Shown here: positions 23,470 through 61,845 of the stretch, piece by piece | Numbering within the stretch: position 1 is the first letter of the stretch | Layout of the letters: each line of letters begins with the position of its first letter | From: Antedon mediterranea | Lineage: Eukaryota > Animalia > Echinodermata | Assembly: GCF_964355755.1 (NCBI RefSeq) | Contig: NC_092673.1 | Location: 19,837,648-19,901,647, forward strand | Reading direction: 5' to 3' | Length of the DNA: 64,000 nt | Made by a program: the position numbers and the translations under genes | The notes under the pieces: generated by a model | Seen by the model: only the letters and a program-made list of their open reading frames with translations | Told to the model about the DNA's origin: nothing | Database searches by the model: none

Positions 23470-23620
23470 GCACTGTACTCACGTGTATGTGTGACGTTCG
23501 CTCCCTAGCTAGAAGCATGCACTTTACTCACGTGCTCCGTTGCAACTAACTATAGGCTCACAACTTTCAGCCTAAAAATGTTGGTTCTTTAAAGTTTAAT
23601 TTGTTTAAATTGGTCTATCT

Positions 23621-28910: not shown

Positions 28911-28983
28911 TTCCCATGACGGGATTCGATCCCGGTACCTCTGATACCAAAGTCGGTGGCACTACACATCAAGCCAGATGAGC
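28911..28983 (-). other. Second tRNA-derived degenerate sequence
   Basis: Duplicate of 28004-28076 with B-box-like GGGATCGAATCCC. Confidence 0.55.
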
Positions 28984-32671: not shown

Positions 32672-32937
32672 TTTACCGTGTGGTAGTACATTAAATGTGA
32701 AATTGTGAGATTTCTTGTTTTTGCCCTGAAACCAGAATTTTAACTATTGTATACATTATAGACTGCAGCATTAACTGTTTGGTGTGTGTGCTTTATTGTG
32801 ATTCTTTTTATTGTAAATTGTGTTTTTATTTATTATTGTATTGCTAACCTGCCGGTTTTTAGTCATTTATTTGAACACCATTTTGCTTAACAGCTTTGGT
32901 GAATTGATTGTATTTTGTTCTTTTCCAATACTACTTT

Positions 32938-38415: not shown

Positions 38416-38890
38416 TTGGTTATCCGCCTCAAGCGGATAAGCCCTTGTTATTGTAAGGATCTTTTTTTTTTTTTTTTTCTTTATTAGTTATCCACTTAGT
38501 AGCGGATAACTCCTTGTAATCGTCCTGTTTCATCATATTTTTTTTGTTGGTTATCCGCAACTAGTAAGTTGCGGATAACCCTTGTTATTAGTTATCCGCT
38601 TAGTAGCGGATAACTCCTTGTAATCGTCCTGTTTCATCAAATTTTTTTTGGTTATCCGCACTTGGCGGATAACCCCTTGTTATTGTCAGGATCTTTTTTT
38701 TGGTTATCCGCACTTGGCGGATAACCTCTTGTTATTGTCACGATCTTTTTTTTTTTTTTGGTTATCCGCACTTGGCGGATAACCCCTTGTTATTTTTTTT
38801 TGGTTATCCGCACTTTGGCGGATAACCCCTTGTTATTGTCAGGATCTTTTTTTTTTTTCTTTTTGGTTATCCGCACTTGGCGGATAACCT
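38416..38890 (+). repeat. Stack of nine Helentron left-terminal hairpins
   Basis: GTTATCC(G/A)C-loop-GCGGATAA at ~38418, 38488, 38549, 38591, 38650, 38702, 38760, 38802 and 38865, most followed by CCTTGT.AT and a T-tract. Confidence 0.9.
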
Positions 38891-41800
38891 CTTGTTATTG
38901 TCACGATCTTTTTTTTTTTTTTTTTTTTTTTTCTTTCTTATTCTTCTTTCTTTCCCAGAATTTTGTTGCGCGTGTATCTCTAAATGTTATCAACATAACA
39001 TTTTATAACTTTATCAGAAGATTGACCTCTATCTGAATATGTCGTAATAAGGTTTTTGGTCTCGTCCGAGTTGCGCAGCGTAAGTTACGCGCGATTTTGT
39101 GAATTTCGCATATTTACCATAGATCGAAAACCAAAAAACAATTTAAATTGAAACTTGGCAAAACTGTAATTAATATCCTGCGCTAACTTTCTATGGATTA
39201 AAAATGGCGGTTTTCACAGAAAATTACGTGCGCACGCGCGTTTAAAATTTCAAGATGCGAAAAATCAATTTCTAATCAACTTTCTACGCGTTTCAGGTCA
39301 TTTTGAGCATTTCAAAAATTCCCACACACGCGCAATTTTTTTACGCGCGCGTGCGCACGTAGCGCAAAAACATATTTGTTTTGGTTGATTTTTGTTTTTT
39401 CAGCCTTTTCTAGTAAATTTACCAATTTTCAATCAATTTCGACTTAAAATCACGTCATACGAGCACGTAGAATTGAATAATTTGCGCGCGTTTTTGATGA
39501 AAAAGTTCAAAAATTTGTGAAAATTATGCCTTTTTTTAAACAGTCATAGATTGTAAACTACGTGGTGAACTTTTTTAAAATTACATATTCTTGAAGTAGA
39601 TGAGTTGTAAATATCGAATCATGCATCGATATTGCTAACCGAACATTATGATGTCATCGTATGGCCACTCGAATATAAAATATAGGATTTTTTTCTCTTT
39701 CGTCATAGCTCATCACATTTAATAGAGCGCATCTCAACCTTTCCGTATTCCATTTCCCCCTAATTTTTTATATTGTCTAGGTCAATCAATGACCTTTCGC
39801 ATGATTTACAATTTGTAAAATGTTTATGACGGCATCATGTGCAAAAGCGTCAATAACTTTGGTCACTTATTTTCACCTATTCTGCACTGTATGTAGTACG
39901 TATACAGTATATATTGTATACTGTATATTCTTAGACGTGACACAAAATAGAGAGCTGACTATAATTTTTTTCAATTGCATAATCGTTTTTCTGTGTGCAA
40001 TATTCTAACGTATGATGTGCACGTGGCGTTTGCGCTGCGGTAAACCTGAATCAAATTTGTTAATTGTTTTCTTTTTTTTTTCTATTCTTCTTTCTTTCAA
40101 CGAATTTTGTTCACAGCGTATCTCTACTTCTGGTCAACATAAGATTGTATAACTTTGTCATAAGATTGACCTGTAGCTTTAGATGTGCAATGATGTTAGA
40201 GTCGCGCAGCGTAAGTTACGCGTGATTCTATGGAATTTTATGGTTGCTCATAAATTTTTAAGACAAAGTTATTTTTCAATGAAACATTACGAAAGTTTAT
40301 TTCATAATATTGTGCAACTTTTGAAATGATAAAAATGGCGTGCTACGCAAAAAATTTTGCGAGTACGAGTGAATTTTTAAAATGCGCAAAATTTATTTCT
40401 ATTTAATTTGCGTACATTTTAGATCATTTTGAGCTTTTCAAAATTGTCTAAATTGTTTGCGTTTTGTGCACGCACTTGTGCACACAGCTCGTACAAAGCG
40501 TAGAAAATGTGTTTTGCAATTGATTTTGTTCATATGCCTACGTTTTATAGTAGATTTCATTCATTTTCATGAATTTTTATTGCAAATTAACGATGCACGT
40601 GCATGTTAAAGTTTAGAAATCGTGTGCTAAAGAATGGGTAATATAATACAAATTTGTGCAAAAATATTCCTATTTTTATTCAGTTATAGCTCCTCAGGAT
40701 GGCAGGTTACCCCATCTATTTGTTATGTATTATGAAAGCTAATGAGTTGTAGATATCAATTAATGTACAATTTGTACCTAAAGGATGTTCTGACGTCACC
40801 ATATGGCCACTAAAATTTTGAAAATAGATTTTTTTCTCTTTTGTATTAGTTAATCCCATTTAACAGAGCGCATCTCACTAATGCGTTTCTATGTTCTTTA
40901 CAAATCAATTTTCTTCCACACATTAGTTAACAAAGTGACCCACGTGATTAAAACTTATGGAAATGGTTGAATTGTGGTTTCATGACGTCATCATATGGCC
41001 AGTTAAATTTAAATAGTCATATTTTTAACTCTTTCCTAAAACTTAATCGTGTTTAAAATAGAGCGCATCTCAGCTTAACGATCCCAAAATTCTTCAAATT
41101 TGTATTGACGTGTAATTATTTAGATAATTAAATTATATAACATATACAGTGTATTCTGTAATATGCTGTCAGCACTGTAAATATATTTATGTCACTCATA
41201 GGATGGCATAATAATTGCCAGCGTGCCCAAAATTCTTCAACTTCTAAGAATGTAATTATTACATAATTGTTCTCTAAAATTGTTACTTTTATGTTTTATG
41301 TTGATGACGTCATTTAAATTGGAATAAGAATATGGGTCTCGTAATTTTTTTATGCTTCACTGTATCTAAATATAGACGTATGACACAAAATAGACACAAT
41401 TCATTAAAATCGTTTTTAAAAGACCGCGCCTCTCACTTTTACCTGCCTGAATTTCCTCAAAATGTCAACATTTTGTTGCTCATAAAAATGTTCCTGTCGG
41501 ATGCTGCAAGGTCATGCTATGGGGTCATGCTATAAGGTCATCCTATGGCTAGTAATTGGAAAGGTAATTGGAAAGGTAGGATATTTGTTTGTTGTTGGCA
41601 TAGTTCATCACTTCAACATATTACGCATCTCAGTTGTACGTGCCAAATTTAATTATATTATTTATATTATATTATTTAATTATGTTATCGTTGAGATGAA
41701 TTATTTTCCGAAAATGGACATACTTTTATGTTTCATTTTGATGACATCAAACATTGTTTTTCCCGTAATTTTAGGTCACACCATAATATAAAACAGTACA

Positions 41801-42401
41801 ACCAGTTACATGTGTGAATAATAATAATACCATTTCTTGTCTCCTCTGCTCTGTGATTTGATCTAATGGATTACTGAAATTTATCTCAGTTACCAGTGGA
41901 ACTTGCTCCAATAGATATAACATTTCTGATAAAACTAATATTATCACACCATAACTGTTAAAGATAATCTTTTATTTCAAACAAATTGAAGAAAACACAC
42001 AAATCTGTATAAAATGTATACCGGTATTTATATAAGCTTTCATTGGTTATTGCAAATGATACAAAATTTTCAACATTATAGTAGGCTGTTTATACTATAC
42101 AGTAGTTCATCAACCTTTTGGTGATCAGTAATTTTACTTAGTACATTATTTACATGGTAATTTGTTAGTTGAGGATTCATTAAACGCATATTTATTGATC
42201 TATTTATAGAAGATTATTATTTTTTAACAATCATCAATATGATTAATAATTTAATCATTTGCCGAGTTTAGACAATAATTGTTATGAAAGAATGACTGCA
42301 TTAGTGGATGCCTAAAACTCCGGTTCCCATTATAATTGAAGAGATGAAACCATTCCATTGAACACCTAAAAACCAAAACAAAATAAATTAATTATTCTTG
42401 C

Positions 42402-43090
42402 AAATGAGTAGATTACTGTATTAGTAATTCATGTGGACCTGTATTGATAGAAAAAAAAATGAAATTATGTATAGAATGAAGTATTGGTAATCGTATAAAA
42501 TAAAACGTATTTTCTTCTTCTGTAAACTTTTTATTTTCAACTTTACTTGAATACCGGTAGATATTGAAAGATTTTTATCTGCACAGATTGCAACATTGCA
42601 TATTCAAATTCAGAACAATATTTATAATAATATAACTCACATAAAAACAAGATTAAAATGTGATTACTCACCAGATATTGTTTCTCCTATACAGGAGAAT
42701 GACATGGGTTGAAATTACAGATTATTCGCTGCCCCTCTTGCATCGATAATAAATTGATTATTTTTCCAAATGAGTAGATTACTGTATTAGTAATTCATGT
42801 GGACCTGTATTGATAGAAATGTATAGAATGAAGTATTGGTAATCGTATAAAACAAAACGTATTTTCTTCTTCTGTGAAACTTTTTATTTTCAACATTACT
42901 TGAATACTGGTAGATATTGAACGATTATTATGTACAGAGATTGCAACATTGCATATTCAAATTCAGAACAATATCTATAATAATATAACTCACATAAAAA
43001 CAAGATTGAAATGTGTTTAGACACCAGATATTGTTTTTCCTATACAGGAGAATGACATGGGTTGAAGTTACAGATTGCTCGCTGCCTCTT
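42402..43090. repeat. ~365-bp tandem duplication downstream of the Helentron ORF
   Basis: AAATGAGTAGATTACTGTATTAGTAATTCATGTGGACCTG recurs at 42402 and 42768. Confidence 0.9.
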
Positions 43091-43225: not shown

Positions 43226-46200
43226 TTAAAATTTAATTTGAATGGCTTCATGATAGCTATAATAAATTGGAATTACTTCAGCCTGTACTGAATCAAGACC
43301 TTTGCTATAAACATGATCAATCAATGTATTGTTTTCAGTAGTAGAACATGTAACATGTTGTTTGTACTCATTCTCTGCCATTAAATTATTCACTCTGGAA
43401 GATTGTTTGAAAAGATTTTCATTAAAATCACCCATTACAATACATTTTGTGCTCATTTTATGTAACTCTTCCAAATGTTTTCTCAAATTTTGACAGAATT
43501 GATTAATATCATAACTTGGGGGTCGATAAATTACTGACACGGCAACAGAAATCGGACTTGTTATTAAAAATGAAACTGCTTCTATATCATTATTACATAT
43601 GTTTAATCTGCTTGAAGACGTATTCTTTGCATACACTGCAACGCCACCATGAGCCTGATGTTTTATTTTGGAACTGAGATCATTTGTATTAGAATACGAA
43701 TCATACCTTGCTTGGTGATACAATTTATACGGCTCAATGCGTACGTCAAAAAAATCATCATCCTTGTTTAACCATGTTTCAGTTAGACATATGACATTAG
43801 AATTCATAAACAAATCATTACACTGAAGATCAACAAAATGTTGTTTAAGCCCTTGAATGTTATGTAACATTATTGAAAATCTAGAAGCCGAATCATGACC
43901 TTGTTTATCACATTGTACGTATGAATCCATATTATTTAAGCACTTCTTTATGTTTGGATCACAATAAATCAGACTAGGTTTAAAATTTTCAATAGTAAGT
44001 CCAGTTATTGAAGTAACACGACTGAGGCCTACATATGCTTGACCATGCGTAAAAGTATCTTTAAGGCAAACCACTGCTTTATCCATTGTCATTCCTTGCA
44101 CTTTATGAACTGTGCATGCATATGCTAATTTGAGAGGAAATTGTTTTCGACTGTATTTTTTCCCCATAGATTCTTTAAACATTTCAATTGCCTGAATACC
44201 AATGTCATTATTGTCAAATTTAACTTTAATAGATACTGGTTCGGTGTTATGATCAGGTTTGACTATTTCATCAACATGTCCCATACATCCATTCGTTAAG
44301 CCTTTTTTAACATCTACATTTTTAATCAACATCACTCTGGCATTAATTGCAATCCACAAATAATTTAGTAAACTAGTTTGACGTGAATTCCGAGGTTTGT
44401 CACAATTTTTGCTCTGTTTCTTGCTATTTACTACACTATCTTCTGCTTTAATGCATACAATGTCTGTACAGGTTTTGTGCAACATTTTTTTATTCCATTC
44501 ATCAACTTGTTTGTTGCGTGGGTAAATATGAATAGCATCTTCACATTCTTCACCTGTTTCACGTGATTTTAGAACTAATAAATCGTTATCAGACAAACAA
44601 TCATGTTTTTCTTTTGTACGCAATTTGTTTAACAATAAAGCAAATTCTTTATCTTCTTTTTGCCTCATGATTTGATCTAACTGTACTTGCTTAAAGTTAT
44701 CTATCCACAGTGAGCTTTCCAATGTGTCTTTATATAACGAACTGCCCATCACCGGGGGTAACTGATAAAAATCACCAACAGCAATTACTGAAATGTTACC
44801 AAATGGACTATCGTTGCGTACTTGTTTTATTTGCCTTAATCGTCCGTGGATATACCAAAGTAACCTTTGATTTACCATTGATATTTCATCTATAATAACA
44901 ATTTGCAACTGACCCAATTTATTACGAAGTGCACTTATTTTTTCTTCTCCAAGTGGTTGATACGGAAGTGAAATATTAATCGGGATAGACAAAGCGCTAT
45001 GAATTGTTTGGCCTTTAATATTATATGCTGCGATTCCTGTAGGAGCTAATTTCAATATTGACAAATCATCGGGATTTTCCATAATCTTTCCAAGAATACG
45101 TGTCGCTTCATTATAAATACAATTTACCAAATGACTTTTTCCTGTACCAGCGCCTCCAGTTATGAAAGTGTAAAATGCTTCAGGTTTTTTACCATTAACT
45201 TTGTCTAAACACCATTGTCTTGTCTTATAAAATATATGTTGTTGTTTTTCATTTAAAGATCGAATCATTTTATTCAATTCTGGTCTTGGAATATTAGATG
45301 AATTAGACTCTACTTTAGATGTATGATTTTTTTGAATTCCAAAATCTGGAATGAAAAATTCATCTTCTTCATCATCAACCTCTACATTTGGCTTTGGGTT
45401 GTCTAACCTTTCTTTTTCGCTTTCTGGACATAATAGGCTCCATGCATCTTCTTGTGGTCCAAATTTTGATAAACATTCCTGTGCTTCTTCAACTTCATCA
45501 GAACTTTTTTCATATTGTTCCATGTTTCCATGAACTATTGACTTTACCGTTTGTAATTGACAGCCACATAATTTCACACATCCTTTCTCATGAAATTGTT
45601 CATACGTTTCAAAATTTGGAGGTTTTAACTGTTCATCTTTTCGAAATGGTAGAAATAACTGAAGTACACTCAAAAAATATTTCTCAGGTGCTGTATCCAT
45701 TGGAAATCGAGGGTATCTTACTATAGCATTACTAGTTCGTGTTCTTTTTTGGATGAATCCCAGCTGTTTTTTTAACTGAAATACATTCTTTTTTTGTTTA
45801 TTTCCTTTCATTTCTGATGAACTCAATATTCTATATTCTGAACAAAATTTTGCCAGGCACATTTTATTAAATTCAGAACTATTAGGTCGAGCTTTATATT
45901 TGTCGATCTTACTTGGCAACCATGCACTTACATCATCATCTGCTTTGTTTTTAATTACACTTAGTGGTAAACTCATTCTGACAGGATTAGGTCCTACTGG
46001 GATAAATTCAACTTTTCTTGAACATTCTTTTAATCTTAAACTACAAACACGATAAATACTTTCTTGTGCAGACACTTCTCGGTTATTCATATAAACATTA
46101 CCAAGTTTTCGCAAACTTTGTCTAGCATCTTCATTGCCTTCTTTCACTTCTGATGCTGCATGAGATAAAAGTAAGCCCATTTCCCGTTCAGATTTCGACA

Positions 46201-49200
46201 TATATCCTATAACGTAAATAATACATGCATATACATTTGTAATATACTGAATATCCATATTAGCATTCCATGCTCTCAATAAGGAAGGATTATATTGATT
46301 TACCCACACATCTTGAGGGTTTCTCTTTATAACAATCTTTTCCTCAGTAGCTACACTATTATTTGCTTTCTCAAATGCACTCTGTGTAATACCTAAACTT
46401 TGAAAAAGTTCTATTGCATTTTTATATGTTTCTTCATTAGTCACAGCATCTTTTACTGAAGTTAATAGCTCCATTGCTTGTTTATTGTCATCATTATCAT
46501 CATTGTCTTTATCCACAATTGTAGGTCTCATAACAAATGTATTTCCAGAAGGTTGTCTAGGGAAGTTAAATCTGCAGTTTGTTCCCTTTTTTTTACATGA
46601 TTTAGAATGTCTTTTACTATGAATTTGCACACTTTTAACAATTTCATTCATTTCAGGATCTACAGTTTCACATGGCACAGCACAAGAAATATATTTATCG
46701 ACAAAATTAATAACTTCTTTATCTTTATCTGTACCAAAAATAGGAGCATTTTCAACCCATACTAACATATGAACATGTGGACTTCCTCTCATTTGAAATT
46801 CAATTCGGTAAAAATAATCTACGACTTTACCAATAGGCTGTGCTTCAGACAAAATTACATTTTTCAAAAAAGTATGAAAGCGTTTATCAAACATTCTGGC
46901 AACAGTCACTGGATTTGATTTCAACAAATTACATTTATCTGCCCATTCTAATTCTTCAATGTTTCTTTGGTCTCCAGACTGACTTAGCAATGTCGTCATT
47001 ATTTCTTTCCAACGGAAATCAGCACTTGAGAATGAAAGAAAGAATGTTGGTTTTCCAATCTGTCGAACCATTGCTATTATATCTTTTTGTGTAGCTTGCC
47101 AGTACGGTGGAGTTCCACGAATTTGTTTTAGAAATTTATAACCCCTATCAGATTTTAAAATTTCCTGAATTTTGGTAACATTTTTCAAATCGGATACAGT
47201 AACTTTGCTAAAATCATCCTTTTTACTTGACCCTTTTCGCAATGCAATGGAAATACTTGATAAAATTTGTTGAAGTTCATATAAAGATTGAGAATAAAAT
47301 ATGTATTCTGTGTTTTGTGCAAACCTGTTATCTATATGCATTAATCTATTATGAAAATAACGTCCGAGTGTTATTTTAACATCTCTCGTATCATGGAATG
47401 TTGGTTGGCCTGTTGGAAATAAAACTGGAAATGATTTTGCTTCATTGCTTTTATTACTTAATAATGCAATAGGGCTATTATTTTCACACGGTGCACAACA
47501 AATTATGTCATTAAAATATTCATCAACCAAATTTTGTCGCCTGTCAACAGGTTGGAGACTTGTATCAAAGATAGCACCGTACAATCGGTCTTCTACTTCT
47601 TCCTCTTCTTCTTCATTGTTTTCTACACATGTTTGATTTTCATGTACCTTAGTATTTGCATTTTCGCTGTTTTCTTCAGATAAATAATTATGCCAATCTT
47701 CATTAATAGCTATATCAAAATAGCACTTGTTATGATCTTGTAGAAATCTAAGAGCTTGAATAACATTGGCAGTATTAACAAATTTATATTTGTAATAACC
47801 TTTGTAAGACAACTTTCGCTTCAATTTTACAGATATTAATTGATCATCAACTTGTGGTCTAGGCAGCATTTTTACAGTTTCAATAGTATTTGAAGGTACA
47901 CATACAACAGGTCCATGTATTCCATGCTGTCCACCTTTAGGTAAATTCATTAATTTCATAAAAGGAATGTTTAATCCAATCAAATGCTGCTCTAAATTAT
48001 TTAAACACCTGAGCTCAGGAGGAATATCGTGTAGTTGTAAATTGTTTGAATTGGCTTCTGCAGGGACTTTCCCTTTTAACAATTTCCTGTGGCATGTAAA
48101 ACAAATCCATAAACGACATCTTGGTGATTCGATAAATTGACAAGGTTTATTACATTCATTGTTGCAAATATGCAAATACTTTTCATTTATACAAGCCTTA
48201 TTTTTGTACTTAGCTTTGGTACACTTCATAACTTGATCTTTGAATAACATTTTAAAGCATACACAACAAACATATTCAGGACCACGAGAAACTGTTTCCC
48301 TGAAATTTTCTAAAACAAACTCAAAATTGCTGTTTTCTTTTTTCTTTTTTTCCCTGTTTTTCATGTTTTTCTTCATAACATTTTTTCGGAACTCTTCGTC
48401 ACCATGATACTTTTCTGCAAATCTTTGCTTACACCTTTCCTTAATACTTTGACGAAATTTTAAATTACCTCGATATTTCTCTGCCAATTTTTGTTTACAC
48501 TTTTGTCGAAATTCCAAATTACTCCGATACTTATCTGCCAATTTTTGCTTGCAGTTTTGACGAAAGTTCAAATTTCTCCGATACTTATCTGCTAATTTTT
48601 GTTTGCAGTTTTGACGAAATTTCAAATTTCTCCGATACTTATCTGCCAATTTTTGTTTGCAGTTTTGACGAAATTTCAAATTACTCCGATACTTATCTGC
48701 CAGTTTTTGTTTGCAGTTTTGACGAAATTTCAAATTACTCCGATACTTCTCTGCCAATTTTTGCGTAACGTTTTTTCTGAATTTTGAATTATTACGATAC
48801 TTCGCTCCTAATTTTTGCTTCAAATTTTGTCTGAATTTTGAATCATTGTGATACTTTTCTGCATTTCTTTGTTTATTATTTTGTATAGTTTTATGTCTAA
48901 ATATTATATCATTATTGTATCTATTCTTCAATTTTTCTTTCAAATTTTGCGCAAATTTTTCATTACATTTATAATTTAACAGATTGTTGACTTGTTTGGT
49001 TGTTCGATAATCCAAATCAATATTGTAGTTATGTCTCGCTTTATTTCGTACTTTTATATTATATTCAGGTTCACATCTATACATTTTTTGTTGTCTTTCT
49101 TTGTTTTCCTTCCTTTTTTGGAATTTATAATCATCATCAGCATATCTTATTTGTTGTGCCTCTTTTACTTTACGTTTCTTTTCTTCTCTGTATACAGGAT

Positions 49201-52200
49201 CACTTTGATATTTGTTTCTATTTTCATTTTTTTCTATTGAATTATCTTTTTCTTCTCTTCTTCTTTTCATTCTCTGACGATTCTTTTCTTTTTGCTTTCT
49301 ATTTTCGTAAGATATTTTTCTTTTTCTTCTAAATGTTTTTACTTCATTTCCAGAACAAGGTCCCTCAGCAGTTTTACTCTTTTTGTGTTTTGGTTCTTTG
49401 TCTTCAAATGTGTGACATTCTTTTCTCATTTGCTTTCGTTTCTGTGTTGTATAATTCTTTTGGGATGTCACATCCATATCAACTTGTCTTGTTGTTTCTT
49501 GAAAATTATTTTGACTTACATTGACAGATTCCACCACATTAAAATGCACATTCATGGTGTACAAAATATATATACCATTGTCAGTTGTAACATCATCTAT
49601 TCTTCCCGGCTTTTTAGCAGAAAACAATTGCCACGTCAAAAGTTGATCATTAAATGAATAAATATCTGTATTAAGCAAGTTTGCCATTGCACTTATTTCA
49701 GCATTGGATGCCCACGTTCCATTATCCATTACTCTTTTTTTAAACACATATTCTTTAACTGATCTATATTCGTGACTAAATGTATTAATAAATAAGTCAT
49801 CAGTTTCCAATAAATGATTAGTAATTGCTCTTCTTAAAAGTAAATGATTATCTTCAGTCCCAGAAATAATGTATGAAATTGCACGATAAAAACAATTACC
49901 ATCACCTGTAATATTTGTAATTTGAAGAGGATGTCCAATCTGACTAGCTCTGTTAATACCACAATTCATATCGATATGTTCACAATGAATGCCTAATTTA
50001 TTACACATGTTTTTCTTTTGTTCTTCTAAGATCGGGACAAATTTAAAATTCTTGTCAGGTCTTTTTCCATACTGAACATTAACAATTTCAATATCACTAT
50101 CATTTTGCCATCCATTACTTGATGAGACATGACCTTCTTTATTATGTTTTTTGCCTTTAACTTTAGAATCAATATTCTTGTCTGGTAATCGTGTACTACA
50201 TTTATACTGATAAGACGTACTAGGTTCATCAACATCGACGTTTCCCAAGTTTCTTTGTTCACAATTATCATCGAGCACAGAAGCGGAACATAACATCATA
50301 GACTTATTTTCAATATTTACACCAGTCAGTTCAAACTCGGTTTCATGTAAATTACAGTTCATTGACCTTGCTAATCTTATACAATAATCGTACACACTTT
50401 GCCAAGATGGACTGTAAAGTAAAATACTCTTTCCATGTTCACTAACACAACCAAATCGATCTCTTGCATGTGGATCAAATATAAGAAATCCATTTACACG
50501 TTTGATAATAGAAAATGTGCTTCTGTTGAAATTCATAAAAAATGCATCATGTTGGTGTAATTCTTTTTCAAGAGCTTGGTTTAATGACAAGGCTCCATAT
50601 TCAGCCATAAATTCGAGATTCCCATCTATTATGCCAAAAACTGATTCTTTGGGAGATATTACAAATGTGTTATCCAAGATATCCAATTCTTTCGGCAGTT
50701 CAGAAATCATTAAAAGGTCCTCGTGCATAGTGGAATCTTTCTGAATGTAACGGTACAACTCGTTTCCAAGAGTCAATATTGTATCAAGGTCTTTGGTGTA
50801 AAATTCATTTCCATTCCTCTTTGTAGAATAAAGAATAGCTACAAGACTATTTGCAACACACTGTTTACCACTTGCAAAGCCAAATCTATAATTCCCTTGA
50901 TTAAAATTACCCTGTGCTACAGTTATATTTTCATTACTATTATATACTTGTAATTCATTTATTGATTGTGTTTTCTGCCTTTTTCGTGTATTTTTTTGTT
51001 TTGGTACATCATCGATTATCAATTCTTCCGAAAAATTATTTTTTTTTAAAACTTCAATATCCACATCGATAGTATGTTGGTCACATTTAGGTTTAGTATG
51101 GGACCTAATTTTTTCAGTCACTGCTTTTTTGCATCCGTCATCAATTATCAATACTTCATTTTCCTCAAATTCACAACTTGCATTTTTATGATCTGTACCA
51201 TTACTATCAATTATTCTACTTCTGTCATTCATTTTGCTATTATTTTGTGCTTTCGCATCGTCAGTCGCTGTGTTGTCGTTTTCTACAGTACATTCCATTT
51301 TAAAATCCTCGTCAGTTTTCGTTTCAGAATTGTCATTATTACCCATGTTCTTTATATCTTTGATAGTATCGCAATCATTCTTTAAATTCACATTACCTTG
51401 TGCTTTTTTGTTATCAATCTTCTTAGTTTTGACAAAACGACCCTTGTTATTTCGTAAACGTTTCGAACCACCACCTGATTGTTGTTGTATTCCGTGCGTT
51501 ACTTTTGTATTTTTCAAATCATCACACATAGGCCTACCACTGTCGTCAATTATTGTTTGTGAATTTCCCAATATATTCGTTTTACCATTTTCTTTGTTGT
51601 ATTCTCTGTAAGTAGTTGTATTCATATTCCATTCCATTTTGTTATTATTTTGTCTTTCATAGAAATCTTTTACACCTTTGCCAATATATTTTACACCTGG
51701 TTCTATACTTATACCATTTATAACGCGCTTTCTCCTTTTCTTATTTCCTCTATTTTTACATCTTTTTTTTCTGTTGTCGGTTCTTTTCTTTGATCTTACT
51801 CTGATCCAATCACTACCAAGTAAATCTTCACTTCCTGTTTGTTGACATTTTAATATTGCATTATTACAACGTTTTTCTTTATTTTTCGTTAATTCTGGAA
51901 AGTCTGAAGTGACAGATTCATCAGGTTCTAGAATCGTATATCTATTGAAATGACAGGGAATACCTATTTCGCCAAACATGTTATCAACAAAATTATTATT
52001 CCCACACATTGAACAAATCCAAATTACCCGGGAATTACATAGTTTGTCTTCAAAAACATCTCTTACACATTTCACATGAAAATATTGACTACAACAGTCA
52101 CATGTTATGCAATTGTCGTCTACTTTCACTTCAATATTACAGAAATCGCATGTATCATCAAACTCTGAAGTGACCTCTGTACCATAAGATAATATGTTTA

Positions 52201-52516
52201 TGATATCATCAATTATTCCTTTAAATTCTGTTGTATCTTTCATAAATTCACAATTGACATTACCTGTATCATCATTTCTGTCGTCTTTGACATTCTCAGT
52301 TGAACAGCATTCATCAAGTAGGTCCAAGATGTCATTAACAACTATTTTAAATTCTGCTGTCTTATCCATAAGTCCATTATTAACATTACCAGTTGTATTG
52401 ACAAAAATCTGCTTTTTACTTGTAACTTCTTTATTCACATTCTTACACAAAAAAATTATCATTATAAAGATAATCAACAAAAAGATACCAACTAATGTTA
52501 TGAATTCCATATCCAT
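43226..52516 (-). CDS. Helentron Rep/helicase/endonuclease polyprotein (3096 aa) with PHD, herpes-tegument-like protease and OTU domains
   Basis: Uninterrupted ORF. HUH EFQMRGSPHVHMLVW (~46775) and YVIGYMSK; PIF1 motifs GGAGTGKS (~45145), IIDEISMV, GDFYQLPPV, TVHKVQGMT, GQAYVGLSRV; EEP endonuclease HNIQGL, CLTETWL, IYRPP, MGDFN, LIDHVY; OTU GDGNCFYRA..HF; PHD C4-H-C3. Confidence 0.95.
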   Translation of the reverse strand: MDMEFITLVGIFLLIIFIMIIFLCKNVNKEVTSKKQIFVNTTGNVNNGLMDKTAEFKIVVNDILDLLDECCSTENVKDDRNDDTGNVNCEFMKDTTEFKGIIDDIINILSYGTEVTSEFDDTCDFCNIEVKVDDNCITCDCCSQYFHVKCVRDVFEDKLCNSRVIWICSMCGNNNFVDNMFGEIGIPCHFNRYTILEPDESVTSDFPELTKNKEKRCNNAILKCQQTGSEDLLGSDWIRVRSKKRTDNRKKRCKNRGNKKRRKRVINGISIEPGVKYIGKGVKDFYERQNNNKMEWNMNTTTYREYNKENGKTNILGNSQTIIDDSGRPMCDDLKNTKVTHGIQQQSGGGSKRLRNNKGRFVKTKKIDNKKAQGNVNLKNDCDTIKDIKNMGNNDNSETKTDEDFKMECTVENDNTATDDAKAQNNSKMNDRSRIIDSNGTDHKNASCEFEENEVLIIDDGCKKAVTEKIRSHTKPKCDQHTIDVDIEVLKKNNFSEELIIDDVPKQKNTRKRQKTQSINELQVYNSNENITVAQGNFNQGNYRFGFASGKQCVANSLVAILYSTKRNGNEFYTKDLDTILTLGNELYRYIQKDSTMHEDLLMISELPKELDILDNTFVISPKESVFGIIDGNLEFMAEYGALSLNQALEKELHQHDAFFMNFNRSTFSIIKRVNGFLIFDPHARDRFGCVSEHGKSILLYSPSWQSVYDYCIRLARSMNCNLHETEFELTGVNIENKSMMLCSASVLDDNCEQRNLGNVDVDEPSTSYQYKCSTRLPDKNIDSKVKGKKHNKEGHVSSSNGWQNDSDIEIVNVQYGKRPDKNFKFVPILEEQKKNMCNKLGIHCEHIDMNCGINRASQIGHPLQITNITGDGNCFYRAISYIISGTEDNHLLLRRAITNHLLETDDLFINTFSHEYRSVKEYVFKKRVMDNGTWASNAEISAMANLLNTDIYSFNDQLLTWQLFSAKKPGRIDDVTTDNGIYILYTMNVHFNVVESVNVSQNNFQETTRQVDMDVTSQKNYTTQKRKQMRKECHTFEDKEPKHKKSKTAEGPCSGNEVKTFRRKRKISYENRKQKEKNRQRMKRRREEKDNSIEKNENRNKYQSDPVYREEKKRKVKEAQQIRYADDDYKFQKRKENKERQQKMYRCEPEYNIKVRNKARHNYNIDLDYRTTKQVNNLLNYKCNEKFAQNLKEKLKNRYNNDIIFRHKTIQNNKQRNAEKYHNDSKFRQNLKQKLGAKYRNNSKFRKNVTQKLAEKYRSNLKFRQNCKQKLADKYRSNLKFRQNCKQKLADKYRRNLKFRQNCKQKLADKYRRNLNFRQNCKQKLADKYRSNLEFRQKCKQKLAEKYRGNLKFRQSIKERCKQRFAEKYHGDEEFRKNVMKKNMKNREKKKKENSNFEFVLENFRETVSRGPEYVCCVCFKMLFKDQVMKCTKAKYKNKACINEKYLHICNNECNKPCQFIESPRCRLWICFTCHRKLLKGKVPAEANSNNLQLHDIPPELRCLNNLEQHLIGLNIPFMKLMNLPKGGQHGIHGPVVCVPSNTIETVKMLPRPQVDDQLISVKLKRKLSYKGYYKYKFVNTANVIQALRFLQDHNKCYFDIAINEDWHNYLSEENSENANTKVHENQTCVENNEEEEEEVEDRLYGAIFDTSLQPVDRRQNLVDEYFNDIICCAPCENNSPIALLSNKSNEAKSFPVLFPTGQPTFHDTRDVKITLGRYFHNRLMHIDNRFAQNTEYIFYSQSLYELQQILSSISIALRKGSSKKDDFSKVTVSDLKNVTKIQEILKSDRGYKFLKQIRGTPPYWQATQKDIIAMVRQIGKPTFFLSFSSADFRWKEIMTTLLSQSGDQRNIEELEWADKCNLLKSNPVTVARMFDKRFHTFLKNVILSEAQPIGKVVDYFYRIEFQMRGSPHVHMLVWVENAPIFGTDKDKEVINFVDKYISCAVPCETVDPEMNEIVKSVQIHSKRHSKSCKKKGTNCRFNFPRQPSGNTFVMRPTIVDKDNDDNDDNKQAMELLTSVKDAVTNEETYKNAIELFQSLGITQSAFEKANNSVATEEKIVIKRNPQDVWVNQYNPSLLRAWNANMDIQYITNVYACIIYVIGYMSKSEREMGLLLSHAASEVKEGNEDARQSLRKLGNVYMNNREVSAQESIYRVCSLRLKECSRKVEFIPVGPNPVRMSLPLSVIKNKADDDVSAWLPSKIDKYKARPNSSEFNKMCLAKFCSEYRILSSSEMKGNKQKKNVFQLKKQLGFIQKRTRTSNAIVRYPRFPMDTAPEKYFLSVLQLFLPFRKDEQLKPPNFETYEQFHEKGCVKLCGCQLQTVKSIVHGNMEQYEKSSDEVEEAQECLSKFGPQEDAWSLLCPESEKERLDNPKPNVEVDDEEDEFFIPDFGIQKNHTSKVESNSSNIPRPELNKMIRSLNEKQQHIFYKTRQWCLDKVNGKKPEAFYTFITGGAGTGKSHLVNCIYNEATRILGKIMENPDDLSILKLAPTGIAAYNIKGQTIHSALSIPINISLPYQPLGEEKISALRNKLGQLQIVIIDEISMVNQRLLWYIHGRLRQIKQVRNDSPFGNISVIAVGDFYQLPPVMGSSLYKDTLESSLWIDNFKQVQLDQIMRQKEDKEFALLLNKLRTKEKHDCLSDNDLLVLKSRETGEECEDAIHIYPRNKQVDEWNKKMLHKTCTDIVCIKAEDSVVNSKKQSKNCDKPRNSRQTSLLNYLWIAINARVMLIKNVDVKKGLTNGCMGHVDEIVKPDHNTEPVSIKVKFDNNDIGIQAIEMFKESMGKKYSRKQFPLKLAYACTVHKVQGMTMDKAVVCLKDTFTHGQAYVGLSRVTSITGLTIENFKPSLIYCDPNIKKCLNNMDSYVQCDKQGHDSASRFSIMLHNIQGLKQHFVDLQCNDLFMNSNVICLTETWLNKDDDFFDVRIEPYKLYHQARYDSYSNTNDLSSKIKHQAHGGVAVYAKNTSSSRLNICNNDIEAVSFLITSPISVAVSVIYRPPSYDINQFCQNLRKHLEELHKMSTKCIVMGDFNENLFKQSSRVNNLMAENEYKQHVTCSTTENNTLIDHVYSKGLDSVQAEVIPIYYSYHEAIQIKF

Positions 52517-53055
52517 TATTCAAAATTTGTATAAGAAACAAATCTACAAATTTCTTCAAATTAATAAACTTTGTATTCTGCAATTCCAATGAATATTACA
52601 ATTAGGTTCTTTTTATCAATTCAAGAAATTCTTGCTAAAACAAAATAAATTATTAAAATTCCAAAAACAATTCAATTTTATATTGTCTTTTGTTTCTATG
52701 ATTTTTAATTTTTGTCCTAATTTTTTTTCTTTTAATATATTTTTTTTTTTGTCTGCTTTTTTTTCAATAGTTCAATTTCACTGAATTAAAAAATTAGCTT
52801 CTGCTTAATATTGGCTTGATGAAATACTTTATATTATTTTAAACTTCTCTTTAATACTTGGTTATGCTAAATAGTTTCAGATTCTAATTTTTATTCTTTT
52901 TACAATTCTACTTAATAACAGATTCAAATAAAAGTGATCTTTAAATCTTCTTTAATTAATTCTTTTGTAATAAACTCTGTTTAATATTTATTTCTTTATA
53001 ATAAGCTTCTGTTTTATTCTTCAAACTTTTGTTTGTATAATCAAACTTTAACTTT

Positions 53056-54039: not shown

Positions 54040-57000
54040 TTATCAATTATTGGAGGGCATAAAGTAAGGAAAATATGTTTTTTCCGTTTTACAGATAATT
54101 TTCTAATACTCACAGCTGTAACTGGCACTGTATATTTTCTGTACAACTACAATCTAAAAAATAAAAGGAAAATCATTAATAATGGCAATAAACAACATTA
54201 ACACTTTTTCAAAATCAACATGCTTCTTAATCAATGTCTGAAAAATTAAGAAATTTTCTCAAAATGAATTTGGGTATTAGACAGCTGGTTAGGGCCTACA
54301 TGTTGTCTCAATGCTAATTTCATTTAATATTTTATTCACAAACCATAAAATCTGATTTATGTAAATGTTTCATAATAGAACATGCCTACAAAATAACAGG
54401 CAACGGTTCACAAAGTAAAGAAAATATGTTTTATCCGTTTAACAGATAATCTACTAATACTCACAGCTGTAGCTGACACTGTATATGTTCTACAATCTAA
54501 AAAAAAAAAACAAGGAAAAACATTAATAATTGGCAATAAACAACATTAATACTTTTTCCAAATCAACATGCTTCTTAATCAATGTCTGAAAAATTAAGAA
54601 ATTCCTCAAAATGACTTTGGGTATGAGACAGCTGGTTAGGCCTACATGTTGTCTTAATGCTAATTTCATTTAATATTTTATTCACAAACCATAAAATCTG
54701 AATGATGTAAATGTTACATAATAGAAAATGCCTACAAAATAACAGGCAACGGTTCACAAAGTAAAGAAAATATGTTTTCTCCGTTTAACAGATAATCTAC
54801 TAATACTCACAGCTGTAGCTAACACTGTATTTTTTCTACAATCTAAAAAAACAAAACAAGGAAAAACATCAATAATTGGCAATAAACAACATTAACACTT
54901 TTTCCAAATCAACATGCTTCTTAATCGAGGTCTGAAAAATTAAGAAATTTCCTTAAAATGACTTTAGGTATGGGACGGCTGGTTAGGGCCTACATGTTGT
55001 CTCAATGCTAGTTTCATTTAATATTTTATTCACAAACCATAAAATCTGAATTATGTAAATGTTTCATAATAGAAAATGCCTACAAAATAACAGGCAACTG
55101 TTCACAAAGTAAGGAAAATATGTTTTCTCCGTTTAACAGATAATCTACTAATACTCACAGCTGTAGCTAACACTGTATATTTTCTACAATCTAAAAACAA
55201 CAAGGAAAAACATTGATAATGGCAAAAAACAACATTAACCCTTTTGTTAAATCAACATGCTTCTTAATCAATGTCTGAAAAATTAAGAAATTTCCTCAAA
55301 ATAACTTTGGGTATGGGCCGGCTGATTGGGGTCTACATGTTGTCTCAAAACTACTTTCATTTAATATCTTATTCACAAACCATAAAATCTGAATTATGTA
55401 AATGTTTCATAATATAAAATGCCTACAAAATAACAGGCAACAGTTCACAAAGTAAGGAAAATATGTTTTCTCTGTTTAACAGATAATCTACTAATACTCA
55501 CAGCTGTAGCTGACACTGTATATTTTCTACAATCTAAAAAAACAAAACAAGGAAAAACATCAATAATTGGCAATAAACAACATTAACACTTTTTCCAAAT
55601 CAACATGCTTCTTAATCAATGTCTGAAAAATTAAGAAATTCCTCAAAATGACTTTGGGTATGAGACAGCTGGTTAGGCCTACATGTTGTCTTAATGCTAA
55701 TTTCATTTAATATTTTATTCACAAACCATAAAATCTGAATGATGTAAATGTTACATAATAGAAAATGCCTACAAAATAACAGGCAACGGTTCACAAAGTA
55801 AAGAAAATATGTTTTCTCCGTTTAACAGATAATCTACTAATACTCACAGCTGTAGCTAACACTGTATATTTTCTACAATCTAAAAAAACAAAACAAGGAA
55901 AAACATCAATAATTGGCAATAAACAACATTAACACTTTTTCCAAATCAACATGCTTCTTAATCGAGGTCTGAAAAATTAAGAAATTTCCTTAAAATGACT
56001 TTAGGTATGGGACGGCTGGTTAGGGCCTACATGTTGTCTCAATGCTAGTTTCATTTAATATTTTATTCACAAACCATAAAATCTGAATTATGTAAATGTT
56101 TCATAATAGAAAATGCCTACAAAATAACAGGCAACTGTTCACAAAGTAAGGAAAATATGTTTTCTCCGTTTAACAGATAATCTACTAATACTCACAGCTG
56201 TAGCTAACACTGTATATTTTCTACAATCTAAAAACAACAAGGAAAAACATTGATAATGGCAAAAAACAACATTAACCCTTTTGTTAAATCAACATGCTTC
56301 TTAATCAATGTCTGAAAAATTAAGAAATTTCCTCAAAATAACTTTGGGTATGGGCCGGCTGATTGGGGTCTACATGTTGTCTCAAAACTACTTTCATTTA
56401 ATATCTTATTCACAAACCATAAAATCTGAATTATGTAAATGTTTCATAATATAAAATGCCTACAAAATAACAGGCAACAGTTCACAAAGTAAGGAAAATA
56501 TGTTTTCTCTGTTTAACAGATAATCTACTAATACTCACAGCTGTAGCTGACACTGTATATTTTCTACAATCTAAAAAAACAAAACAAGGAAAAACATCAA
56601 TAATTGGCAATAAACAACATTAACACTTTTTCCAAATCAACATGCTTCTTAATCAATGTCTGAAAAATTAAGAAATTCCTCAAAATGACTTTGGGTATGA
56701 GACAGCTGGTTAGGCCTACATGTTGTCTTAATGCTAATTTCATTTAATATCGTATTCACAAACCATAAAATCTGAATGATGTAAATGTTACATAATAGAA
56801 AATGCCTACAAAATAACAGGCAACGGTTCACAAAGTAAAGAAAATATGTTTTCTCCGTTTAACAGATAATCTACTAATACTCACAGCTGTAGCTAACACT
56901 GTATATTTTCTACAATCTAAAAAAACAAAACAAGGAAAAACATCAATAATTGGCAATAAACAACATTAACACTTTTTCCAAATCAACATGCTTCTTAATC

Positions 57001-59770
57001 GAGGTCTGAAAAATTAAGAAATTTCCTTAAAATGACTTTAGGTATGGGACGGCTGGTTAGGGCCTACATGTTTTCTCAATGCTAGTTTCATTTAATATTT
57101 TATTCACATACCATAAAATCTGAATTATGTAAATGTTTCATAATAGAAAATGCCTACAAAATAACAGGCAACTGTTCACAAAGTAAGGAAAATATGTTTT
57201 CTCCGTTTAACAGATAATCTACTAATACTCACAGCTGTAGCTAACACTGTATATTTTCTACAATCTAAAAACAACAAGGAAAAACATTGATAATGGCAAA
57301 AAACAACATTAACCCTTTTGTTAAATCAACATGCTTCTTAATCAATGTCTGAAAAATTAAGAAATTTCCTCAAAATAACTTTGGGTATGGGCCGGCTGAT
57401 TGGGGTCTACATGTTGTCTCAAAACTACTTTCATTTAATATCTTATTCACAAACCATAAAATCTGAATTATGTAAATGTTTCATAATATAAAATGCCTAC
57501 AAAATAACAGGCAACAGTTCACAAAGTAAGGAAAATATGTTTTCTCTGTTTAACAGATAATCTACTAATACTCACAGCTGTAGCTGACACTGTATATTTT
57601 CTACAATCTAAAAAAACAAAACAAGGAAAAACATCAATAATTGGCAATAAACAACATTAACACTTTTTCCAAATCAACATGCTTCTTAATCGAGGTCTGA
57701 AAAATTAAGAAATTTCCTTAAAATGACTTTAGGTATGGGACGGCTGGTTAGGGTCTACATGTTGTCTCAATGCTAATTTCATTTAATATCGTATTCACAA
57801 ACCATAAAATCTAAATTATTTAAATGTTTCATAATATAAAATGCCTACAAAATAACAGGCAACAATTCACAAAGTAAGGTAAATATGTTTTCTCCGTTTA
57901 ACAGATAATCTACTAATACTCACAGCTGTAGCTGAAACTGTTAATTTTCTACAATCTAAAAAAAACAAGGAAAAACATTAATAATGGCAATAAACAACAT
58001 TAATACTTTTTCCAAATCAACATGCTTCTTAATCAATGTCTAAAAAATTAGGAAATTTCCTCAAAATGACTTTGGGTATGGGCCGGCTGATTGCGGCCTA
58101 CATGTTGTCTCAATGGTAATTTCATTTAATTGTTTGATCACAAACAATAAAATCTGAATTACGTAAATGTTTCATAATAGAAAATGTCTACGAAATAACA
58201 GGCAACAGTTCACAAAGTAAGGAAAATATGTTTTCTCCGTTTAACAGATAATCTACTGATACTCACAGCTATAGCTGAAACTGTATATTTTCTACAATCT
58301 AAAAAAAACCAAGGAAAAACATTGATAATGGCAATAAACAACATTAACACTTTTTCCAAATCAACAAGCTTCTTAATCAATGTCTGAAAAATTAAGAAAT
58401 TTCCTCAAAATGACTTTGGGTATGGATCGGCTGATTGGGGCCTACATGTTGTCTCAATGCTAATTTCATTTAATATTTTATTCACAAACCATAAAATCTG
58501 AATGATGTAAATGTTTCATAATAGAAAATGCCTACAAAATAACAGGCAACAGTTCACAAAGTAAGGAAAATATGTTTTCTCTGTTTAGCAGATAATCTAC
58601 TAATACTCACAGCTGTAGCTGACACTGTATGTTTTCTACAATCTAAAAAAAAAACAAGGAAAAACATTAATAATTGGCAATAAACAACATTAACACTTTT
58701 TCCAAATCAACATGCTTCTTAATCGAGGTCTGAAAAATTTAGAAATTCCTCAAAATGACTTTGGGTATGAGACAGCTGGTTAGGGCCTACATGTTTTCTC
58801 AATGCTAATTTCATTTAATATTTTATTCACAAACCATAAAATCTGAATGCTGTAAATGTTTCATAATAGAAAATGCCTACAAAATAACAGGCAACTGTTC
58901 ACAAAGTAAGGAAAATATGTTTTCTCCATTTAACAGATAATCTACTAATACTCACAGCTGTAGCTAACACTGTATATTTTCTACAATCTAAAAACAACAA
59001 GGAAAACATTGATAATGGCAATAAACAACATTAACCCTTTTTCCAAATCAACATGCTTCTTAATTAATGTCTGAAAAATTAGGAAATTTCCTCAAAATGA
59101 CTTTGGGTATGGGCCGGCTGATTAGGGCAAGCAACAGTTCACAAAGTAAGGAAAATATGTTTTCTCCATTTAACAGATAATCTACTAATACTCACAGCTG
59201 TAGCTGAAACTGTTAAATTTCTACAATCTAAAAAAAACAAGGAAAAACATTGATAATGGCGATAAACAACATTAACACTTTTTCCAAATCAACAAGCTTC
59301 TTAATCAATGTCTGAAAAATTAAGAAATTTCCTCAAAATAACTTTGGGTATGGGCCGGCTGATTGGGGTCTACATGTTGTCTCAATACTACTTTCATTTA
59401 ATATCTTATTCACAAACCATAAAATCTGAATTATTTAAATGTTTCATAATATAAAATGCCTACAAAATAACAGGCAACAGTTCACAAAGCAAGGAAAATA
59501 TGTTTTCTCCGTTTAACAAATAATCTACTGATACTCACAGCTGTAGCTGAAACTGTATATTTTCTACAATCTAAAAAAAACAAGGAAAAACATTGATAAT
59601 GGTAATAAACAACATTAACACTTTTTCCAAATCAACAAGCTTCTTAATCAATGTCTGAAAAATTAAGAAATTTCCTCAAAATAACTTATTTTATTCACAA
59701 AGAATAAAATCTGAATTATGTAAATGTTTCATAATAGAAAATGCCTACAAAATAACAGGCAACAGTTCAC
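54040..59770 (-). repeat. ~345-bp tandem array (17 units), each with a putative 32-nt micro-exon
   Basis: ACTCACAGCT recurs 17 times from ~54108 to ~59533; the minus strand reads pyrimidine tract-AG / 32 nt / GTGAGT. Confidence 0.9.
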
Positions 59771-60322
59771 TCCCAATCATGAAACCATTAATCATCTCTA
59801 CAAACTATTTATTTAATATACACTACTTACAATATTCTAGAGATACTAAAGTAGAAACAATTGTGTATCTCTTCCAACAGCTACAAGACAAAAATATATT
59901 ATTATTATAAATATCAATACAAATTGTGATCAAAACATCCACAATATTTGTAACAATGACAGGTGCGAAAGGGAACTGCGCTGACCTACGTCACTACTAC
60001 TAGGACTACTGGAGTAAGCCTAGACAACATGCTATTGTAAGAAGAACGAGTCATTGTTTCTTCTCTTTAAGAATTTATACAACTAAAAATTAAGCTAGAG
60101 TTAATATAATATAAGCCAGGTGCAAAAGGGAACTAGCGCCGTTTAGTCCTACTAAAAACAGCAAGTATTCTTGTACAGGCTAGGCCTAGGTACACTATGA
60201 ATGTAGCAGACATATTTGTTCGTATTTACCGGGACCGTATTTAACATACACATGGCCATACACGATTGTCGTGCTGCTACGAAAGCCATCGGGCTGAAAA
60301 ACGTCACGACGTTTGCCGGCCA

Positions 60323-61374: not shown

Positions 61375-61845
61375 TGCCGGCCATCTCTGAAAATCTGACA
61401 TCCTTCCGTATATCTATAGTAGGCTAGGGTATCGTTAGTAAGTAGCAATTACAAAACAACTACAAATCAAACAATCCACATAATTTCTTACCTATTTCTT
61501 ATAGTATATCAATTCTCAACAAACTTGAGTTTGTTATTTATTTATTTAATCGTTGAAGTTCGACGATATAAAATGGTATTTGTAACAATATTATCAGAGA
61601 GCGACTCTTAAAAACCAACATGGAGTTTACCAACGACATACCACAACACAACACGTTGTCGAATTTTCTCGAAATTCGGTTCACCTACAGTATGGCATGC
61701 AATCCTCGCCAAAATTACCAATATTTAACGAATAACGAAAATTAGTTTTCACGTCAGACCTATTATATGTATTCTACGTGTATATTAGACGTTGCGTTTT
61801 CGCGGATAACCTAACTCGTCCGCAGTGACGAGTTCAAATCTAGTT

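What the first reader, a model, noticed from the sequence alone, without database searches (positions are those of the whole stretch)
49530..50925. Two unrelated deubiquitinase-type proteases in tandem in a rolling-circle transposase, one herpesvirus-tegument-like
Seen: QGNFNQGNYRFGFASGKQCVANSL...LDTILTLGNELY...FLIFDPHAR (~50925-50310; Cys codon 50858-50860), followed by OTU GDGNCFYRAIS...W..NAEI..MA...HF (~49920-49530), with catalytic residues apparently intact. Knowledge: the first pattern matches herpesvirus large-tegument deubiquitinases (UL36/BPLF1/M48, peptidase C76: Q..G.QC and FDPH); OTU is a known Helentron accessory domain. Inference: a virus-like counter-defence or polyprotein self-processing module fused to PHD-Rep-helicase-endonuclease, and a possible transposon-herpesvirus domain exchange. 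I cannot confirm how often this combination has been reported.
Basis: partly seen in the sequence, partly recalled or inferred. Interest (0 to 1): 0.85.

Follow-up and report, generated by a model that had tools for sequence, protein, structure and literature searches.

The report
Helentron with two deubiquitinase domains
This is a multi-copy rolling-circle transposon whose single large protein carries two intact-looking domains that likely remove ubiquitin, one of herpesvirus-tegument type; that design is already published, so this is mainly a well-preserved new example.

Summary
An unbroken 3,096-aa ORF (52516-43226, minus strand) reads PHD-like - VTD (Herpes_teg_N) - OTU - DUF6570 - Rep - PIF1 - AP endonuclease. 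The VTD triad C553/D681/H683 and the OTU residues C875/H991/N993 are present. The predicted VTD fold matches the zebrafish Helitron VTD 8ADD best (Z 29.0, rmsd 1.8), ahead of MCMV M48 (Z 22.7). Erven et al. 2022 (PMC9741609) described this: 121 Helitrons with VTD plus OTU, DUB activity shown for zebrafish VTDs, and a proposed transfer from Helitron to herpesvirus. Here 21 of 25 RepHel-bearing relatives among the best 150 clusters also carry OTU. The scan noted the same design before in a mussel (e1-9353158). Two extras were not found in print: an invariant Gly-Gly site upstream of the VTD (13 of 13 aligned; L/V-x-G-G in 12 of 12 relatives, Q in this family) and an N-terminal membrane-like segment. 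Self-cleavage therefore stays a minority reading. Verdict: new member of a known kind.

The parts
43226..52516 (-). Helentron transposase ORF, 3,096 aa, no internal stop
   Evidence: domains
52448..52504 (-). N-terminal hydrophobic, membrane-like segment (aa 5-23)
   Evidence: Kyte-Doolittle 19-residue mean 3.31; 2.6-3.4 in P0003, P0005-P0008; below 1.6 in the first 150 aa of the other 21 of 26 relatives scored
52004..52150 (-). PHD-like zinc finger (aa 123-171)
   Evidence: Pfam PHD E 0.0032, below the curated cut-off; Cys/His pattern aligned in relatives
51653..51808 (-). Conserved block of unknown function (aa 237-288)
   Evidence: 16 columns identical in at least 12 of 13 aligned sequences; no Pfam match
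51467..51490 (-). Gly-Gly motif (aa 343-350, G348-G349), candidate ubiquitin-tail-like cleavage site, followed by a basic cluster; inferred
   Evidence: G348 and G349 invariant in 13 of 13 aligned; the only such columns between aa 289 and 408
50291..50929 (-). VTD / peptidase C76 deubiquitinase domain (aa 530-742): C553 (50860-50858), E606 (50701-50699), D681 (50476-50474), H683 (50470-50468)
49517..49945 (-). OTU domain (aa 858-1000): D872 (49903-49901), C875 (49894-49892), H991 (49546-49544), N993 (49540-49538)
48448..48874 (-). In-frame 54-bp (18-aa) tandem repeat in the basic linker
47693..48076 (-). DUF6570, a marker of HLE2 elements
   Evidence: Pfam E 3.6e-20; marker status from PMC11417382 passages
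46193..47356 (-). Rep (HUH nuclease): Helitron_like_N, H-V-H motif at 46810-46763, Y-x-x-x-Y motif at 46216-46193
   Evidence: Pfam E 8.6e-36; motifs
44648..45256 (-). PIF1-like helicase core, Walker A at 45157-45134
   Evidence: Pfam E 6.6e-29
43298..43861 (-). AP-type endonuclease (defines Helentron)
   Evidence: Pfam Exo_endo_phos E 6.9e-9
54061..59770 (-). 343-bp tandem array upstream of the ORF with splice-like signals on the coding strand; likely inside the element
   Evidence: 33 acceptor-like and 17 donor-like sites on minus versus 2 and 0 on plus; splicing not shown
61790..61845 (.). Candidate element end: hairpin plus 10-bp subterminal repeat shared with neighbouring non-autonomous elements; inferred
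   Evidence: 90% identical over 59 nt to 62934-62992, then divergent
38418..41100 (.). Nested non-autonomous (HINE-like) copies and a stack of subterminal-repeat units; may hold the other end; inferred

Best explanation
This is the front part of a Helentron (HLE2) transposase carrying a VTD domain and an OTU domain with all catalytic residues in place, and the two domains likely act as deubiquitinases that protect the element's protein from ubiquitin-directed removal. Shown here: ORF, domain order, catalytic residues, predicted VTD fold, multi-copy family. Shown in print for zebrafish homologues: Helitron VTDs cleave ubiquitin, prefer K48 and K63 chains (DrT1 also K11 and NEDD8), and need C322, D451 and H453. 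Inferred: (1) this VTD has the same activity; (2) the OTU is active, although no transposon OTU had been tested as of PMC9741609; (3) being fused to RepHel, the domains strip chains from the transposase itself or from proteins at its DNA intermediates, so the transposase lives longer. The pair is an old, inherited and partly interchangeable accessory slot, not a fresh capture from a virus. Odds: identity about 0.97, VTD activity about 0.85, the protective role about 0.55.
For: Pfam above cut-off for both domains and for Rep, PIF1, endonuclease and DUF6570. Profile of 69 sequences hits 8ADD at E 2e-34, herpes tegument proteins at 4e-15 to 4e-8. Model pLDDT 95.2; Foldseek TM 0.84 to 8ADD and 0.72 to M48; VIA Z 29.0 (rmsd 1.8, 203 aligned) and 22.7 (rmsd 3.6, 201 aligned). 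Cys, Asp and His are kept in 25 of 25 full-length relative VTD domains (2 further rows are N-terminally truncated); OTU Cys in 29 of 30 rows and His in 28 of 30, window included. E606 aligns with 8ADD E377, which is needed to hold the ubiquitin tail (my count; paper section 8); the column is acidic in 26 of 26 rows. 12 of 17 full-length hits carry both Pfam domains; 21 of 25 RepHel-bearing clusters have OTU. VTD and OTU pairwise identities track Rep (Spearman 0.61 and 0.51 over 120 non-independent pairs of 16 proteins). The slot varies: VTD-OTU twice, OTU-VTD, VTD alone, OTU twice.
Against: No activity or expression was shown here. The single-sequence search of the VTD against PDB found nothing at E<=1; the link needs a profile or a fold. 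The residue matching 8ADD D376 is Ser here, and D376A reduced activity in the zebrafish enzyme. Active-site geometry was not measured in the model. The 40 listed differences (of 443) between this copy and related contigs are 30 non-synonymous to 10 synonymous, 4:0 in the VTD, so there is no sign of recent selection on this copy, although none hits a catalytic codon. The biological role is untested in the paper as well.
Confidence: 0.75

Rival explanations
1. One of the two proteases also cuts the element's own protein after the ubiquitin-tail-like Gly-Gly at aa 348-349. This would free a VTD-OTU-RepHel-endonuclease part, starting with a basic cluster, from an N-terminal membrane-like and PHD part.
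For: G348-G349 invariant in 13 of 13 aligned sequences within an otherwise unconserved stretch; [LV]-x-G-G in 12 of 12 relatives from about three N-terminal lineages, against a per-sequence shuffle chance of 0.06-0.15. Hydrophobic N-terminus kept through many substitutions in 5 relatives. The zebrafish VTD cleaves the short peptide RLRGG-AMC, and viral DUBs cut polyproteins at di-glycine sites.
Against: The motif was defined after seeing the data. This family has Gln, not Leu, at P4. Only 1 of 15 more distant RepHel relatives shows a hydrophobic-x-G-G upstream of the first DUB, though many are probably 5'-incomplete. No Gly-Gly lies between OTU and DUF6570. The sea-urchin motif is placed by alignment only. 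The membrane-like segment is limited to 5 of 26 relatives scored.
Confidence: 0.15
2. The domains act mainly on host targets in trans, such as cullin neddylation or ubiquitin marks on chromatin and repair proteins, as a virus-like counter-defence rather than self-protection.
For: Herpes VTDs act on signalling components and cullins, and DrT1 VTDs cleave NEDD8 (PMC9741609). A PHD-like finger is present. Many relatives have stand-alone or multiple VTDs.
Against: DrT2-VTD, from the zebrafish element with the same VTD+OTU layout, had negligible NEDD8 activity. No target evidence here. Not exclusive with the best explanation.
Confidence: 0.25
3. The VTD was captured recently from a herpes-like virus, or passed to one, by this lineage.
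For: Same fold as herpes tegument DUBs: TM 0.68-0.79 for the top 26 rows of BFVD.
Against: Identity to those viral proteins is only 12-20%. 917 clusters match at E<=0.001, many in Helentron context. VTD distances track Rep distances. No locus was returned from viral contigs (a close-relative search only). The paper proposes an ancient transfer from Helitron to herpesvirus.
Confidence: 0.02

Closest known systems
Zebrafish Helentron DrT2 (one active VTD plus OTU) and the 121 VTD+OTU Helitrons of Erven et al. 2022 (PMC9741609)
   Same: VTD and OTU in the ORF of an endonuclease-bearing Helitron, catalytic residues intact.
   Different: Closest named relatives here are echinoderm proteins (95-96% identical over the region to Antedon mediterranea entries); 'echinoderm' does not occur in the paper's main text (supplements not seen). 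PHD-like finger, membrane-like N-terminus and Gly-Gly site are not mentioned in the parts read.
DrT1-VTD2, PDB 8ADD
   Same: Best structural match (Z 29.0, rmsd 1.8 over 203 residues); Cys-to-Asp spacing 128 here versus 129; E377 equivalent kept.
   Different: 17-18% identity; Ser in place of D376; DrT1 has two VTDs and no OTU.
Herpesvirus large tegument deneddylases (UL36, BPLF1, M48; peptidase C76, PF04843)
   Same: Fold and Asp-x-His active-site order (2J7Q: TM 0.72, Z 22.7).
   Different: 12-20% identity; virion protein rather than transposase.
HLE2 subgroup b of HELIANO (PMC11417382)
   Same: DUF6570, endonuclease and Herpes_teg_N, the last reported as sharing the RepHel ORF and enriched in subgroup b.
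   Different: Subgroup placement not tested by a tree here.

Membership tests
VTD / peptidase C76 deubiquitinases | Profile match to Herpes_teg_N above the curated cut-off | tested here: met
   40.1 bits versus 25
VTD / peptidase C76 deubiquitinases | Catalytic Cys followed by an Asp-x-His motif | tested here: met
   C553, D681, H683; kept in 25 of 25 full relative domains
VTD / peptidase C76 deubiquitinases | VTD fold (8ADD, 2J7Q) | tested here: met
   Predicted model: Z 29.0 and 22.7, TM 0.84 and 0.72
VTD / peptidase C76 deubiquitinases | Acidic residues that hold the ubiquitin tail (D376/E377 in DrT1-VTD2) | tested here: inconclusive
   E606 matches E377; S605 stands in place of D376
VTD / peptidase C76 deubiquitinases | Cleavage of ubiquitin or NEDD8 | not testable with these tools
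   Needs an assay
OTU proteases | Profile match and D-x-x-C ... H-x-[ND] residues | tested here: met
   38.9-41 bits versus 23.3; OTUD5 E 5e-7; D872, C875, H991, N993
OTU proteases | OTU fold | not tested
   No model was built for this domain
Helentron (HLE2) | Rep HUH nuclease plus PIF1 helicase in one ORF | tested here: met
Helentron (HLE2) | C-terminal AP endonuclease and DUF6570 | tested here: met
Helentron (HLE2) | Subterminal inverted repeats, terminal hairpin, insertion in T-runs | tested here: inconclusive
   Candidate ends at 61790-61845 and within 38418-41100, shared with non-autonomous neighbours; not confirmed by other copies or an empty site
Helentron (HLE2) | Dispersed multi-copy family | tested here: met
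   Seven proteins at 76-96% over the region from one named species on at least four contigs of different length; 696 contigs of run X2 laid, spanning 99+ to under 90% likeness

The most novel reading that the evidence does not exclude
An echinoderm-type clade of Helentrons makes its transposase as a precursor with a ubiquitin-tail mimic, (L/V)-x-G-G, upstream of its deubiquitinases and cuts itself there; in the feather-star-type families this releases the nuclear transposase from an N-terminal membrane anchor, a virus-like polyprotein switch not found in my paper searches.
Probability: 0.15. Interest if true: 0.6.

Novelty: new member of a known kind. Interest (0 to 1): 0.17.

Why it matters
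As a discovery it matters little: the domain pair, its activity in zebrafish homologues and the herpesvirus link are published. Its value is practical. It is an unbroken, intron-free ORF with both protease sites intact, suited to two questions the paper left open: whether transposon OTUs are active, and what the DUBs do for transposition. If the conserved Gly-Gly site is cleaved, it would show a DNA transposon processing its own protein with a deubiquitinase.

Tried and rejected
Single-sequence PDB search with the VTD: no hit; superseded by profile and fold searches. No whole genome is held, so copy number and empty sites could not be counted. A first candidate end near 60155 was dropped: no partner repeat downstream of the ORF, and 8 matches against 5.4 expected by chance. 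No RNA holder was listed; run X5 is only a guessed RNA run, so expression and splicing are untested. Reads were laid only on 49400-52560, so the element's ends were not tested with other copies. The doubled VTD-OTU of P0002 was not seen as a joint in four runs; contigs cannot show absence. A search with the N-terminal region found nothing among proteins of 511-2000 aa, although known relatives fall in that range, so it is a weak search. Close-relative scans of viral and metagenome contigs returned no loci. The protein atlas gave no answer for the conserved N-terminal block. No 2A-like NPGP motif in the window or 26 relatives. No complex prediction was run. No tree with herpesviral sequences was built. 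Domestication of this copy was considered and not supported (30:10 non-synonymous to synonymous among 40 of 443 listed differences).

Full report
Observation. The region lies in one stop-free frame on the minus strand, 52519-43226, first Met at 52516, 3,096 aa. Pfam gives, in order, Herpes_teg_N, OTU, DUF6570, Helitron_like_N, PIF1 and Exo_endo_phos, all above their curated cut-offs. A PHD-like finger at aa 123-171 scores below its cut-off.

The VTD domain. A single-sequence PDB search found nothing. A profile of 69 sequences (the window domain plus 68 shorter hits chosen) hit the zebrafish Helitron VTD 8ADD at E 2e-34, three herpesviral tegument proteins at 4e-15 to 1e-11 and M48 at 3e-8. The AlphaFold2 model has mean pLDDT 95.2. 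It matches 8ADD with TM 0.84 and M48 with 0.72, and by VIA-align with Z 29.0 (rmsd 1.8, 203 aligned) and 22.7 (rmsd 3.6, 201 aligned). C553, D681 and H683 are kept in all 25 full-length relative domains aligned; two further rows lack the N-terminal half. By my count on the alignment, E606 matches E377 of DrT1-VTD2, which holds the ubiquitin tail, while D376 is Ser here (paper section 8). Side-chain geometry was not measured.

The OTU domain. It matches OTUD5, OTUD1 and OTUD3 structures by sequence (E 5e-7 to 6e-6). D872 and C875 are present in 29 of 30 aligned rows and H991 in 28 of 30, window included. No model was built.

How common the pair is. Of 17 full-length hits, 12 carry both Pfam domains; the closest are four Antedon mediterranea entries at 95-96% over the region. 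The VTD alone matches 917 clusters at 50% identity. Orders vary: VTD-OTU, OTU-VTD, VTD-OTU twice, VTD alone, OTU twice. Across 16 proteins, VTD and OTU identities track Rep identity (Spearman 0.61 and 0.51; pairs not independent), which fits long inheritance inside the element. Viral structures are 12-20% identical, so nothing suggests a recent exchange.

State of this copy. Contigs from four public runs cover 49400-52560 over a range of likeness, as for a repeat family. Of 443 differences 40 were shown; 30 are non-synonymous and 10 synonymous, none at the catalytic codons. This is what an unselected young insertion would give, but the 40 are not a random sample. Expression was not tested.

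Literature. Erven et al. 2022 (PMC9741609; seen: abstract, passages, sections 6 and 8, part 1 of 2 of section 13; no figures or supplements) found most of 1,221 non-viral VTD homologues in Helitrons with a C-terminal AP endonuclease, and 121 of these also carry OTU. They assayed DrT2 (VTD plus OTU) and DrT1, solved 8ADD, showed K48/K63 preference, proposed protection from proteasomal degradation, and proposed that herpesviruses took the domain from a Helitron. They state that transposon OTUs had not been tested. HELIANO (PMC11417382; passages) reports Herpes_teg_N in the RepHel ORF, enriched with the endonuclease in HLE2 subgroup b, and DUF6570 as an HLE2 marker. OTU in Helentrons is also noted in PMC4067079, PMC6431247 and PMC5148889 (passages). 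PMC4289320 (passages) mentions a UL36-like captured gene in a fungal Helitron and does not bear on this.

What may be extra. G348-G349 are the only columns conserved in at least 12 of 13 aligned sequences between aa 289 and 408 (the 13 were chosen for having a long N-terminal region). All 12 relatives read [LV]-x-G-G there, with a shuffle chance of 0.06-0.15 each, but they fall into about three lineages, the motif was defined after the fact, and this family has Gln at P4. Only 1 of 15 more distant relatives has such a motif upstream of its first DUB, many being probably incomplete. No Gly-Gly lies between OTU and DUF6570, so the DUBs would stay on the transposase. Residues 5-23 are strongly hydrophobic, also in 5 of 26 relatives scored. 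Three paper searches (listings only, apart from the two papers among them read as above) showed no report of such processing in Helitrons; supplements and paywalled papers were not seen. I give self-cleavage 0.15.

Element boundaries (inferred). Upstream of the ORF lie a 343-bp array with splice-like signals on the coding strand (strand composition may inflate the counts), an element with about 175-bp inverted ends at 60314-61383, and at 61790-61845 a hairpin plus 10-bp repeat shared with neighbouring non-autonomous elements. Downstream, a diverged copy of those elements at 40056-41100 has no matching start, and repeat units are stacked at 38418-38889. This fits an element of about 22 kb with nested insertions and the hairpin end upstream of the ORF; reversed ORF orientation is known in Helentrons (PMC5148889). 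It was not checked against other copies.

Verdict. Real, intact-looking and well supported, but a new member of a published kind. Interest 0.17.

Noticed in passing
window 54061-59770: 343-bp tandem array (about 15-17 copies, with a 3-unit higher-order period of 1037 bp) carrying repeated acceptor- and donor-like signals on the coding strand; possibly multiplied 5' non-coding exons of the Helentron.
   Followed up: partly
window 38418-38889, 62986-63066, 30027-30124: Stacks of 40-60-bp units with a palindromic subterminal repeat inside T-runs; look like ends left by nested non-autonomous Helentron insertions.
   Followed up: partly
window 26480-27874, 28483-30010, 38858-41100, 61844-64000: At least six copies or fragments of a 1.1-1.3 kb non-autonomous family (65-90% alike), flanking the Helentron on both sides.
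   Followed up: partly
window 60314-61383: MITE-like element with about 175-bp inverted ends, 96% complementary.
   Followed up: no
window 42382-43089: Two 90%-identical copies of about 350 bp downstream of the ORF, with splice-like signals.
   Followed up: no
window 31694-35928 (+): Reverse transcriptase ORF (RVT_1, E 2e-36) preceded by an ORF with weak baculovirus FP matches; likely a non-LTR retrotransposon.
   Followed up: no
window 20941-23478 (-): 845-aa frame with DUF1759 and a weak aspartyl protease match; likely a BEL/Pao LTR retrotransposon fragment (family label recalled).
   Followed up: no
P0002, P0089: The whole VTD-OTU module is tandemly doubled; in P0002 the two copies are both about 98% like the window's VTD, so the duplication would be recent if the gene model is right.
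   Followed up: partly
BFVD hits: Unnamed entry Q06VS9 (810 aa) ranks third (TM 0.79) among herpes proteins; I recall the accession range as an ascovirus, unverified. Giant-virus proteins (Tupanvirus, Indivirus, Catovirus, Yasminevirus) match at TM about 0.53.
   Followed up: no
window 24548-26064 and 30126-30660: Long minisatellites of 36 bp (42 copies) and 18 bp (30 copies).
   Followed up: no
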